This document shows, piece by piece, positions 1,420-4,710 of a stretch of DNA of 64,000 nucleotides. Origin of the DNA: Stylophora pistillata (lineage: Eukaryota); contig NW_019218205.1 of NCBI RefSeq assembly GCF_002571385.2, positions 132,570-196,569 on the forward strand. The letters are read 5' to 3'. Position numbers and translations under genes: made by a program. The notes beneath the pieces are model-generated. The model made no database searches and was not told where the DNA came from. It saw only the letters and a list, made by a program, of their open reading frames with translations. Positions within the stretch are counted from its first letter, which is position 1; the number at the start of each line of letters is the position of its first letter.

Positions 1420-4400
1420 ATGGCTTCGTCGCTAGAATACTCCGCAGAGCAACTGAACTACTACAGGATCTGCTATCTAGTCACTGATATCCTAACTGAG
1501 GGTCTACGAAAGATCTTCAAGCAAGAATGGGACAATCGCTACAAAATAACATAAGGAGAATGGAAAGATAATCATAAAAATGGACTGGACTTTTGGAACG
1601 GCGAGTCTCCCTCTGCGTGGGTTAAAAGAGCCGATCTTTTAACCACCATGAAAAACGGTGACAGAGCTGATTGGGATTGTCCCATGCTTTTTTTTGTGCT
1701 ATTCTTTATTCAAATTGCCTGAACAGTCTCTCTCCAGTAGTTCGGTCTCATGTGAATAATCTCAGAATTTTTCGCGATAGAGAATTTGCACACATGCCTC
1801 GAGGAAAAATCTCCGACCTAGACTTCAAAAGTTCCATCTCAAAGGTATACACAACATTCCAAGCACTTGGGCTTGGTAGTTTGGCTTCAAAAATTCAGAC
1901 CGTCGAACACCAGACAGGTTTCCCAACAAAGGAGTTAAACGCTGTCTCAAAGAAGGTTGACGATCTGGAGCAAGAGCTTCGTGAAACGAAAACACAACTT
2001 CAAGAAAAAGAGAACAATCTTCAACAGAAAGGAAGGGAGCTTCAAGACAAAGAAGAACAACGACAGGTGCTTGAAAATCAGTTCAATACTGATGTCTCAC
2101 CATTTTGCATTCTTCCCTCTAAACCTACACACGACGTTGAACCAAGACGTAAAGAGGTTGCAGAAATTACACAACAGCTCAAAGCTCTCAAGAGCGAAAA
2201 CAATGACGGCTTAAGCACCCTGCATATATCAGGAAACCCTGGAAGTGGAAAATCTCAGCTTGCTCGTCTGGCAGCCGAGCGATTCTATGACGAAGTCCAA
2301 CACAGTTCATCGGCTACTTCATTTGTCATGACGCTAAATGCAGAAAATTCACAAACTCTTTTGGAATCGTATGTCTCTTTCGCTCGACATTGCAACTGTC
2401 CGGAGTATACTGAAACAAACACCTTCGGCTCCAAAAATTTGAGCACAGATGAGAAGATTGCGAGTCTGAAGACATTAATTAGCATAAAAGTAAATCTTTA
2501 CTCGTCGTGGCTGCTAGTGGTTGATAATGTCCTTAGCTTATCACAAATAGATTTTGATTTGCGAGAGTTTAAAGATAAGAACTAGGCAAGGAGCCAATTA
2601 TTGATAACAACACAGGATGTTGTGTCCATTCCTCTACCAAGCTCTTCCATTCAGCATATCTCCTTTAGTGAAGGTATGCATCCTGCTGATGCCTGCTCTT
2701 TGTTACGACTCCTTTCTGGTGTCAGTGATAGCGTGGTGGAAGATATCGCAAAAGCATTAGACTACCAACCACTTGCATTAGCCAGCGCCACCACCTACGT
2801 CAGAGAAGTTCGTCAGAACAAAAAAACTTCTAGTTTTGGCTGGATAGACTATCAACAGAAACTGGAGAAAGGCCGCGAATTACCACTGAGACTTTTCTGG
2901 CTGAGAACAATCCAAGCTATCAGAAAACAATGAGCACAGCAGTCAAACTCGCCGTACAAAAAGCGATGGAATCCGACAAAGTAATAGGTCCTACGTTTTT
3001 ATTTCTCTCTATGTGTGCACCACAGCCTATACATCAAGATGTCGTCGTGAAGTACATCATGATTGATACCGAGAGTGAGTTTCAAGATGAAGACATGATT
3101 CGTTCACGGATCAATAGATGCTCCTTGTTCTTGTTTGAGGAGACAAAGAGCGGCGACTATATTCGGGTACACAGAGTCGTTAATGCAATCATCAATGCAG
3201 TTATAGAATATTGTGCCGAGACTGAAAAGCGCAAATTCGTTTTCAGAGCAGTTGCGTCTTTTTCGAATTTCATAGACGCGGAAATTTCAAGGAATGAGCT
3301 CTATCAAGAATCTCTTACTATCACAAAGAACAATGCCCCGCATTTAGCAACGCTGATTGATAAGATTGAACAACTGTCCTATCCAGTGGCCAATAGTGAC
3401 TTATTAACCATGCAAAAATATCTATCCTAATTAGAAAATCTGGGTAAGGTGTGTCAAAATCATTGCGAATTTTGTACAGCACTTGAATATTTTGATATGG
3501 CCTTGCAGTGTGTTGACAAGAGCGAAGTTTTAAGAAGGCATCAATCTACTCAAACCTGGGTGTTGTACACAGCGACATGGGTAACCAAGAGGAGGCCAAA
3601 GACTATTACGTACGTGCACCGGAAATTCGTCTGAAAAAGCTTGGATCTGACCATGTAGATGTCGCATCAAGCTACAATAACCTGGTTGTTGTACACAGCG
3701 AAATGGGTGACAAAGAGGGGGCCAAACACTATTTTGAACGTGCTCTGGAAATTCGTCTGAAAAAGCTTGGACCTGACCATGTAGATGTCGCAAAAAGCTA
3801 CAATAAGCTGGGTGTTGTTCACAGTGATATGGGTTGATATGGGTGACAAAGAGGGGGTCCAAGGATTTTTACGCACGCGCTCGGGAAATTCGTCTGAAAA
3901 AGCTTGGACCTGGCCATGTAGATGTCGCAAAAAGCTACAATAAGCTGGGTGTTGTACACAGCGACATGGGTAACCAAGAGATGGCCAAGGACTATTACGC
4001 ACGTGCACTGGAAATTCGTCTGAAAAAGCTTGGAACTTACTATGTAGTTGTCGCAACAAGCTACAGTGACCTGGGTATTGTGCACAGCAACACAGATGAC
4101 AAATAAGGAGCCCAAGGATTTTTACGCACGCGCACTGAAAATTCGTCTGAAAAAGCTTTGACCTGACCATGTAGATAACGCAAAAAGCTATAATAAGTTG
4201 GGTGTTGCACACAGCGATATGGGGGACAAAGAAGGGGTCCAAGCATTATTACGCACGCGCACTGGAAATTCCTCTAAAAAAGCTTGGACCTGACCATGTA
4301 GATGTCGAAAAAGGCTAAAATAAGATGGTTGTTGTACACAGTGACATGGGTGACAAATGGGGGGGCCCTAACTTTTTTACGCACGCGCACGGGAAATTCG

Positions 4401-4710
4401 TCTCAAAAGCTTGGACCTGACCATCTAGATGTCGCAAAATGCTACAATAAGCTGGGTGTTGTACAAAGCGACATGGGTGACAAAGAGGGGGTCAAAGACT
4501 ATTACGCACGCGCAATGGAAATTCGTCTGAAGAAGCTTGGACCTGACCATGTAGATTTCGCAACAAGCCACAATAACCTTGGTGTTGTACATAGCGGCAT
4601 GGGTGACAAAGAGGAGGCCAAAGGCTATCACGCACGTGCACTGAAAACTCGTCTGAAATAGCTTACACCTGATCATGTAGATGTCGCAGCAAGCTACTAT
4701 AACCTGGGAA
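1420..4710 (+). pseudogene. Disabled NLR-like gene: DZIP3/hRUL138-like HEPN, coiled coil, STAND (NB-ARC-like) NTPase, TPR array
   Basis: ATG at 1420. HEPN-like region with RIFRDREFAH; E/Q/K-rich coiled coil; Walker A GNPGSGKS; Walker B LLVVDN; ITTQD; YQPLAL; about 9 kinesin-light-chain-type 42-aa TPRs. In-frame stops at 1552, 2583, 3428 and 4104, and frameshifts near 1690, 2880, 3530, 3830 and 4310-4370. Confidence 0.85.
3550..4710 (+). repeat. 126-bp TPR-coding tandem array, about 9 near-identical copies
   Basis: GAAATTCGTCTGAAAAAGCTTGGACCTGACCATGTAGATGTCGCA recurs about every 126 bp (CCATGTAGAT-like at ~3651, 3777, 3914, 4040, 4167, 4293, 4421, 4547, 4673). Confidence 0.9.

What the first reader, a model, noticed from the sequence alone, without database searches (positions are those of the whole stretch)
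1420..4710. HEPN-STAND-TPR: animal NLR-like receptor with a putative RNase effector
Seen: one colinear, apparently intronless coding region with an N-terminal Rx4-6H-type motif (RDREFAH), a coiled coil, a P-loop STAND NTPase and a TPR sensor. Established: HEPN domains are often dimerisation-activated RNases; effector-STAND-TPR is the layout of bacterial Avs and many fungal NLRs; corals have expanded NACHT/NB-ARC repertoires. Inference: a family of coral immune receptors in which ligand-triggered oligomerisation switches on RNA cleavage. This copy is dead (at least 4 stops and several frameshifts), consistent with birth-and-death turnover.
Basis: partly seen in the sequence, partly recalled or inferred. 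Interest (0 to 1): 0.7.

Follow-up and report, generated by a model that had tools for sequence, protein, structure and literature searches.

The report
Dead but transcribed coral immune receptor
This is a broken but still spliced copy of a large coral gene family whose intact members join a likely RNA-cutting head, a switch ATPase and a repeat tail predicted to sense intruders, a design already catalogued in corals but with no functional test in the papers searched.

Summary
1420-4715 is one colinear HEPN-like / coiled coil / Apaf-1-type STAND / 42-residue TPR coding region, 54-56% identical to intact paralogs, with 6 stops and 8 frameshifts. The genome holds at least 62 related loci; 13 gap-free ORFs of 892-1330 aa were read, all keeping R-N-x3-4-H. 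The layout is published for corals (PMC10236652, Additional file 17, OG0000193), and this scan found it before on other DNA. New here: poly(A) contigs splice a 5'-UTR intron (903-1402). The first stop is absent from 8 of 8 runs and is likely an artefact of the sequence file. The stop at 2583 and the TPR frameshifts are shared by every run where they could be checked, and other breaks are polymorphic. So it is a transcribed pseudogene. RNase activity of intact paralogs is plausible but untested; Pfam and fold support for HEPN is weak.

The parts
773..902 (+). 5'-UTR exon (only short upstream ORFs); RNA contigs carry 63-77 further letters before it, so another exon likely lies upstream
   Evidence: RNA contigs of X7 and X8 align at 772/791-899 and jump to 1400
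903..1402 (+). 500-nt GT..AG intron in the 5' UTR
   Evidence: Joint 899>1400 in X7 and X8, not in X5 or X9; no RNA cover in bins 904-1356; ends read from the sequence
1420..1931 (+). HEPN-like N-terminal domain; frameshifted at the T run 1688-1695; TAA at 1552 is likely a file artefact
   Evidence: HEPN_DZIP3 E=0.022 for the C-terminal half alone; paralog heads
1773..1793 (+). Rx5H motif RDREFAH (family: RNEEFAH); the N-to-D change is kept in 4 of 4 runs
1932..2084 (+). coiled-coil linker, variable in length among paralogs
   Evidence: sequence; weak coiled-coil Pfam hits; alignment gaps
2100..3190 (+). STAND NTPase of the Apaf-1/CED-4 (NB-ARC) type: Walker A 2232-2255, Walker B 2508-2528, YQPLAL 2763-2780, VH (MHD-like; label recalled) 3167-3172; shared stop TAG 2583-2585; frameshift about 2875 is polymorphic
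   Evidence: the paralog model matches Apaf-1 at E=6.3e-12; NB-ARC E=1.4e-6 in paralog L047
3191..3543 (+). helical region before the repeats; stop 3428 polymorphic; frameshift about 3535 shared by 6 of 6 runs that bridge it
3544..4715 (+). about nine 42-aa TPR units (kinesin-light-chain type) with 5 frameshifts and 3 stops

Best explanation
This locus is a broken, still spliced copy (a transcribed pseudogene) of a coral family of HEPN-like / NB-ARC / TPR proteins whose intact members are likely immune receptors that would cut RNA when triggered. Shown: the architecture; the breaks; the splicing; intact single-exon ORFs elsewhere in the genome; conserved R, N and H, Walker A and Walker B; an Apaf-1-like predicted fold of the ATPase; variable residues at fixed positions of the TPR unit. 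Inferred from Apaf-1, plant resistosomes and bacterial Avs: the TPR tail binds a foreign or damage-linked molecule, the ATPase opens and oligomerises, and the coiled coil brings two HEPN heads together to form an RNase site that degrades host or viral RNA. This copy likely arose by DNA duplication (it keeps the 5' intron), lost function through the stop at 2583 and the TPR frameshifts, and now collects further breaks by drift.
For: Shared breaks: TAG 2583 is kept in 4 of 4 runs whose differences are fully listed (X1, X5, X9, X12); the frameshift at about 3535 in 6 of 6 bridging runs; those at about 4102 and 4230 in 4 of 4. Polymorphic breaks: the T run has 8, 7 or 6 letters (1, 6 and 1 of 8 runs) and only 6 is in frame; a 7-base deletion at 2463 is in 5 of 6 covering runs. 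The longest frame under any tested allele state is 387 aa. Family: 62 loci; R, N, H invariant in 22 of 22 open heads; R 120, N 119, H 119 of 121 heads among the top 120 homologs; dN/dS about 0.42 (head) and 0.32 (ATPase) in 6 pairs; the motif sits at the end of helix 101-120 of a pLDDT-86 model; top fold hit Csm6 in both searches. TPR positions 9, 12, 16, 19, 20 are among the most variable in 61 repeats. Published: PMC10236652, PMC8260672, PMC9646362, PMC8662601, PMC3710099.
Against: HEPN support is weak. 14 of 22 heads miss HEPN_DZIP3 at E<=0.01; the three scores seen (15, 21.4, 23.6 bits) are under the cut-off of 27; Foldseek gave no hit at E<=0.001 and the best Z of 6.9 is within the range common for helical bundles. 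68 of 165 head columns are also at least 95% conserved in close homologs. In distant representatives R/N/H fall to 118/125/109 of 137, below several W, G and L columns. The 6 dN/dS pairs come from two trios and are not independent. Contigs drop rare alleles, so an intact allele is not excluded. No ligand, oligomer or RNase activity was tested.
Confidence: 0.65

Rival explanations
1. Same pseudogene and family, but the head is a non-catalytic RNA-binding or adaptor domain, and intact receptors would signal through partners (cell death, transcription) rather than cut RNA.
For: Weak Pfam and fold scores; the full Rx4-6H is absent at the aligned place in 40 of 137 distant heads; PMC8662601 leaves 'RNA sensor or RNase' open; inactive HEPNs exist (PMC3710099).
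Against: R, N and H are all invariant in 22 of 22 paralog heads and near-invariant in 121 homolog heads; these positions are catalytic in RNase L, PrrC and RloC (PMC3710099).
Confidence: 0.22
2. The gene is intact in living corals and the breaks are assembly or file errors.
For: The stop at 1552 is absent from 8 of 8 runs. At 12 listed sites the runs show two letters and the window a third. The frameshift at about 2875 and the stop at 3428 are absent from several runs.
Against: TAG 2583, the frameshift at about 3535 and the TPR frameshifts are shared by all runs where they could be checked; other individuals carry extra breaks (2463, 2438, 2756); 7 of 8 runs are out of frame at 1688.
Confidence: 0.03
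3. The locus is a functional truncated gene: the 6-T allele would give a 349-387 aa HEPN / coiled coil / partial ATPase protein acting as a decoy, a helper or a sensor-free RNase.
For: Spliced transcript in poly(A) libraries; X12 has the head and coiled coil in frame; predicted frame 349 or 387 aa; the stop lies in the last exon, so decay of the mRNA may be weak (own knowledge).
Against: Seen in 1 of 8 runs only; the invariant N of the motif is D in 4 of 4 runs; the phase of the 6-T and deletion alleles is unknown; no protein evidence.
Confidence: 0.06

Closest known systems
Coral DZIP3-like HEPN / NB-ARC / TPR genes, orthogroup OG0000193 (PMC10236652, Additional file 17; 53 rows, the first 30 seen, from Acropora digitifera and two Pocillopora species)
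   Same: Same domain order, in corals, as a multi-copy family
   Different: This copy is dead; identity with OG0000193 rests on architecture, since its sequences were not compared
Invertebrate DZIP3/hRUL138-like HEPN-NACHT receptors (PMC8260672 cnidarians; PMC9646362 pearl oyster; PMC3710099)
   Same: N-terminal HEPN with R-N-x-H motif on a STAND-repeat receptor; lineage-specific expansion; RNase role proposed
   Different: The ATPase here resembles Apaf-1/CED-4 rather than NACHT; TPR rather than LRR or WD40; a coiled coil between head and ATPase; motif mostly Rx5H, not Rx4H
Bacterial Avs STAND receptors (PMC13581612)
   Same: Effector-STAND-TPR in one chain; in the paper, ligand binding to the TPR sensor drives tetramer assembly and nuclease activity (SeAvs7)
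   Different: Animal gene with a 5' intron; HEPN-like head; common descent not tested; no ligand known
Apaf-1 / CED-4 and plant NB-ARC resistosomes
   Same: Predicted ATPase fold (Foldseek E 6e-12 to 1e-8)
   Different: Those carry CARD, CC or TIR heads and WD40 or LRR sensors (recalled); Walker B here is hhhhD-N
RAZR (PMC13017515; abstract and search listing only)
   Same: Oligomerisation on a phage trigger switches on RNA cleavage; the paper mentions HEPN 44 times
   Different: Bacterial, zinc-finger sensor, no STAND ATPase in the abstract

Membership tests
HEPN RNase (DZIP3-like) | Rx4-6H motif with a polar residue after R | tested here: met
   22 of 22 open paralog heads have R-N-x3-4-H; this copy has R-D-x4-H, and it lies out of frame in 7 of 8 runs
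HEPN RNase (DZIP3-like) | Match to PF18738 above its curated cut-off | tested here: inconclusive
   8 of 22 heads at E<=0.01, best 3.9e-5; HEPN_Swt1 6 of 22; the scores seen (15, 21.4, 23.6 bits) are below 27
HEPN RNase (DZIP3-like) | Helical HEPN fold with the motif at the end of a helix | tested here: inconclusive
   All-helical model, pLDDT 86; top hit Csm6 4rgp Z 6.9, rmsd 4.4, 119 aligned; sacsin HEPN and AF_0298 HEPN Z 5.0 and 4.8: consistent but under the noise level for helical bundles
HEPN RNase (DZIP3-like) | RNase activity of a HEPN pair | not testable with these tools
   needs a bench assay
STAND NTPase, NB-ARC/Apaf-1 type | Walker A and B, GxP-type motif and winged-helix end, Apaf-1-like fold | tested here: met
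   Walker A in 18 of 18 paralog ORFs, PLA-type motif in 17 of 18; Foldseek to Apaf-1 E=6.3e-12; PF00931 above cut-off in 1 of 3 paralogs scanned
STAND NTPase, NB-ARC/Apaf-1 type | Ligand-induced oligomerisation | not testable with these tools
   no ligand known
Coral HEPN/NB-ARC/TPR family (OG0000193) | Domain order HEPN, NB-ARC, TPR in a coral gene | tested here: met
   published rows
Coral HEPN/NB-ARC/TPR family (OG0000193) | Sequence orthology to the listed gene models | not testable with these tools
   the table gives gene ids only; the paper's FASTA supplement could not be read
Functional receptor gene | Open frame from head to TPR tail at this locus | tested here: not met
   14 breaks in the window; shared breaks in all runs where checkable; longest frame 387 aa
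Processed (retro) pseudogene | Loss of introns | tested here: not met
   keeps and splices a 5' intron; intact paralogs also have one coding exon

The most novel reading that the evidence does not exclude
Corals run dozens of single-chain detect-and-cut-RNA receptors, an animal counterpart of bacterial Avs, and this locus shows what happens when the sensor is lost: it still makes a spliced mRNA, one allele encodes a sensor-free HEPN / coiled-coil protein that acts as an unleashed RNase or a decoy, and the frameshift inside the head in 7 of 8 runs is a selected off-switch rather than drift.
Probability: 0.05. Interest if true: 0.7.

Novelty: new member of a known kind. Interest (0 to 1): 0.25.

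Why it matters
The locus itself is ordinary. The family matters more. Six literature searches found no functional test of an animal HEPN-STAND receptor, and 13 gap-free single-exon paralogs here are easy material for one; a positive result would extend the sensor-ATPase-nuclease logic of bacterial Avs to animals. Published counts may be low, because Pfam misses most of these heads: I saw PF18738 in none of the 120 rows, and one homolog is labelled Nephrocystin-3. For the scan, stop codons in this assembly can be false, so counts of dead copies are inflated.

Tried and rejected
Homodimer prediction of the paralog head gave no verdict (score 0.04, mark 0.32, alignment not used); it is not evidence either way. 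Foldseek of the head model gave no match at E<=0.001. A sequence search of solved structures with the ATPase alignment found only TPR proteins. A splice-acceptor test upstream of paralog start codons gave 14 of 18 against a 45% background: suggestive only, not used as proof of a family-wide intron. A look-up of earlier findings by sequence found nothing. Retrocopy origin was rejected (5' intron kept). Introns as the cause of the frame changes were rejected (no spliced joint inside the coding region in RNA contigs). Membership of a local cluster was rejected: contig C421 holds one locus, and the neighbours look like GPCR, sulfotransferase and beta-lactamase-fold genes (labels recalled, not scanned). 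Contig depth was not used to rank expression. The status of stops 4159, 4316 and 4659 in other runs could not be read, because 38 rows were not shown. The NO VEIN preprint and PMC8195603 added nothing specific.

Full report
Observation. A frameshift-aware alignment against two intact paralogs covers 1420-4715 at 56% and 54% identity and finds the same 14 breaks in both: stops at 1552, 2583, 3428, 4159, 4316, 4659 and frameshifts near 1690, 2875, 3535, 3836, 4102, 4230, 4380, 4407 (stop codons read). Pfam on 8 pieces gives strong TPR_10/TPR_12 hits, weak P-loop hits, and HEPN_DZIP3 at E=0.022 for the half head after the first frameshift.

The family in this genome. The window is G000:C421. The 296-aa middle piece has 78 matches at E<=1e-10. 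A paralog head has 69 matches, which merge into 62 loci on 47 contigs: 19 with a whole head in an open frame of 750 aa or more (some run into N gaps), 13 with a stop or split inside the head, 30 short or partial. These are lower bounds. I fetched 19 paralog stretches, chosen for long frames, and one upstream stretch. 18 ORFs were read: 13 gap-free ORFs of 892-1330 aa, 4 with N gaps, 1 ending at 666 aa. Several of the 13 end inside a repeat, so their tails may be short in the assembly. Outside this genome at least 1953 proteins match at E<=1e-10; the named ones among the top 120 are stony corals.

The head. In 22 open heads R, N and H of R-N-x3-4-H are invariant. In the top 120 homologs (121 of 122 domains cover the motif) R is kept in 120, N in 119, H in 119, but 68 of 165 columns are as conserved. 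Among 150 representatives at 50% identity (of 752 hits), 137 of 153 domains cover the motif: R 118, N 125, H 109, full Rx4-6H 97; D follows R in 1. Pfam calls HEPN_DZIP3 in 8 of 22 and HEPN_Swt1 in 6 of 22 at E<=0.01. The model (pLDDT 86) is all helical with the motif at the end of helix 101-120. Both fold searches rank Csm6 4rgp first (Foldseek E=0.99; Z 6.9), with sacsin and AF_0298 HEPN domains among the top 50; that Csm6, Roquin, AbiF, Cas13, Swt1 and MtlR in that list carry HEPN folds is partly recalled. The scores alone are not significant. Together the evidence makes a HEPN likely, not proven.

The ATPase and tail. A model of 520 residues from 13 paralogs (pLDDT 85) matches Apaf-1 (E=6.3e-12), CED-4 and plant resistosomes. 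Walker A is GNPGSGKS in 116 of 120 homologs and Walker B ends D-N-V in 106. The tail is a 42-residue TPR like that of kinesin light chain. In 61 repeats from 16 paralogs, positions 9, 12, 16, 19, 20 and 38 vary most (2.8-3.2 bits) while the scaffold is fixed; I infer that 9-20 face a binding groove. dN/dS in the 6 pairs with dS<1 is 0.42 for the head and 0.32 for the ATPase; the pairs come from two trios.

Is this copy dead? 20 of 24 listed runs hold the stretch; I laid 8, all contigs. The poly(A) runs X7 and X8 join 899 to 1400 (GT..AG, intron 903-1402) and have no cover inside the intron, which serves as the control against DNA. The stop at 1552 is in none of 8 runs (six read T, two C at 1553), including X1, which shares the window's indel state and may be its source. 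At 12 listed sites (1432, 1477, 1553, 1853, 2556, 2582, 2620, 4244, 4369, 4372, 4373, 4404) the runs show two letters and the window a third. I infer that mixed sites of the assembly were replaced by arbitrary letters. Shared breaks: TAG 2583 in 4 of 4 runs whose differences are fully listed; the frameshift near 3535 in 6 of 6 bridging runs; those near 4102 and 4230 in 4 of 4; 3836 in 2 of 2; 4380 and 4407 in the one listed contig that bridges them. Polymorphic breaks: T run at 1688 (8 letters in X1, 7 in six runs, 6 and in frame in X12); a 7-base deletion at 2463 in X5, X7, X8, X9, X12 but not X1; the frameshift near 2875 absent from 6 of 7 covering runs; stop 3428 absent from X5, X8, X12, X17. 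The frame from ATG 1420 ends after 44 aa (window), 100 (X1 state), 112 (7 T), or 349-387 aa (6 T). Contigs drop rare alleles, so an intact allele is not excluded, but none was seen.

Mechanism. Shown: parts, breaks, splicing, conserved motifs, predicted folds. Inferred: in intact paralogs a ligand binds the TPR tail, the ATPase oligomerises as in Apaf-1 or Avs7 (PMC13581612, passages), and paired heads cut RNA, as R and H are needed for RNase L and PrrC (PMC3710099, passages). That HEPN sites form between two domains is recalled. I put the RNase-effector reading of the family at about 0.65-0.7 and the pseudogene reading of this locus at about 0.9.

What is known. PMC10236652 (passages; Additional file 17, first 30 of 323 HEPN rows and first 30 of 53 OG0000193 rows) lists DZIP3-like HEPN / NB-ARC / TPR genes in corals. 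PMC8260672 (passages) reports 17-83 HEPN-NACHT proteins per anthozoan. PMC9646362 (passages) and PMC8662601 (passages) propose RNase or RNA-sensor roles. PMC3710099 (passages) lists DZIP3 HEPN fused to TPR and NACHT, and bacterial HEPN-STAND-TPR. PMC13017515 was seen as abstract only. Searches showed no functional test of an animal member; subscription journals are largely outside the library, and the FASTA supplement of PMC10236652 could not be read. Earlier notes of this scan describe the same design, one in this genome.

Verdict. A new, dead member of a known kind; interest 0.25. The useful additions are the 5' intron, the allele-level picture of decay, the false stop in the sequence file, and a set of intact paralogs for the bench test.

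Noticed in passing
window 1432, 1477, 1553, 1853, 2556, 2582, 2620, 4244, 4369, 4372, 4373, 4404: The window letter matches neither of the two letters seen in the runs; likely mixed sites replaced by arbitrary letters, which can create false stops across this genome.
   Followed up: partly
window 3-118: Nested palindrome (39-nt arms, 90% complementary); very high contig depth at nearby 300-450; looks like a high-copy miniature inverted-repeat element (label recalled).
   Followed up: no
P0261 (2123 aa): The same head plus TPR joined to ankyrin repeats, a kinase and a Ribonuc_2-5A domain (RNase L-like); a real fusion or a merged gene model.
   Followed up: no
P0219 (1439 aa): A PNP_UDP_1 domain in front of the HEPN-like head of a STAND-TPR protein: two candidate effectors on one receptor.
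   Followed up: no
L002 (G000:C195:398093-398587): Paralog with a TGA exactly at the motif arginine in an otherwise long frame; real or a file artefact.
   Followed up: no
L028, L041-L049 and others; contigs C195, C150, C40, C282, C114, C120, C171, C939: 13 of 47 contigs hold two or more loci of the family, often one long-frame and one broken copy; tandem heads occur in 2 of 120 homologs.
   Followed up: partly
window 11752-12774, 25573-26562 and L050:4199-5200: Three related single-exon GPCR-like ORFs around the locus (label from sequence features, not scanned).
   Followed up: no
window 39637-40998 and 43935-45695: Two tandem beta-lactamase-fold-like ORFs, the first shorter (label recalled, not scanned).
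   Followed up: no
window 60700-61531: ORF resembling the GIY-YIG end of a Penelope-type retroelement beside an N gap (label recalled, not scanned).
   Followed up: no
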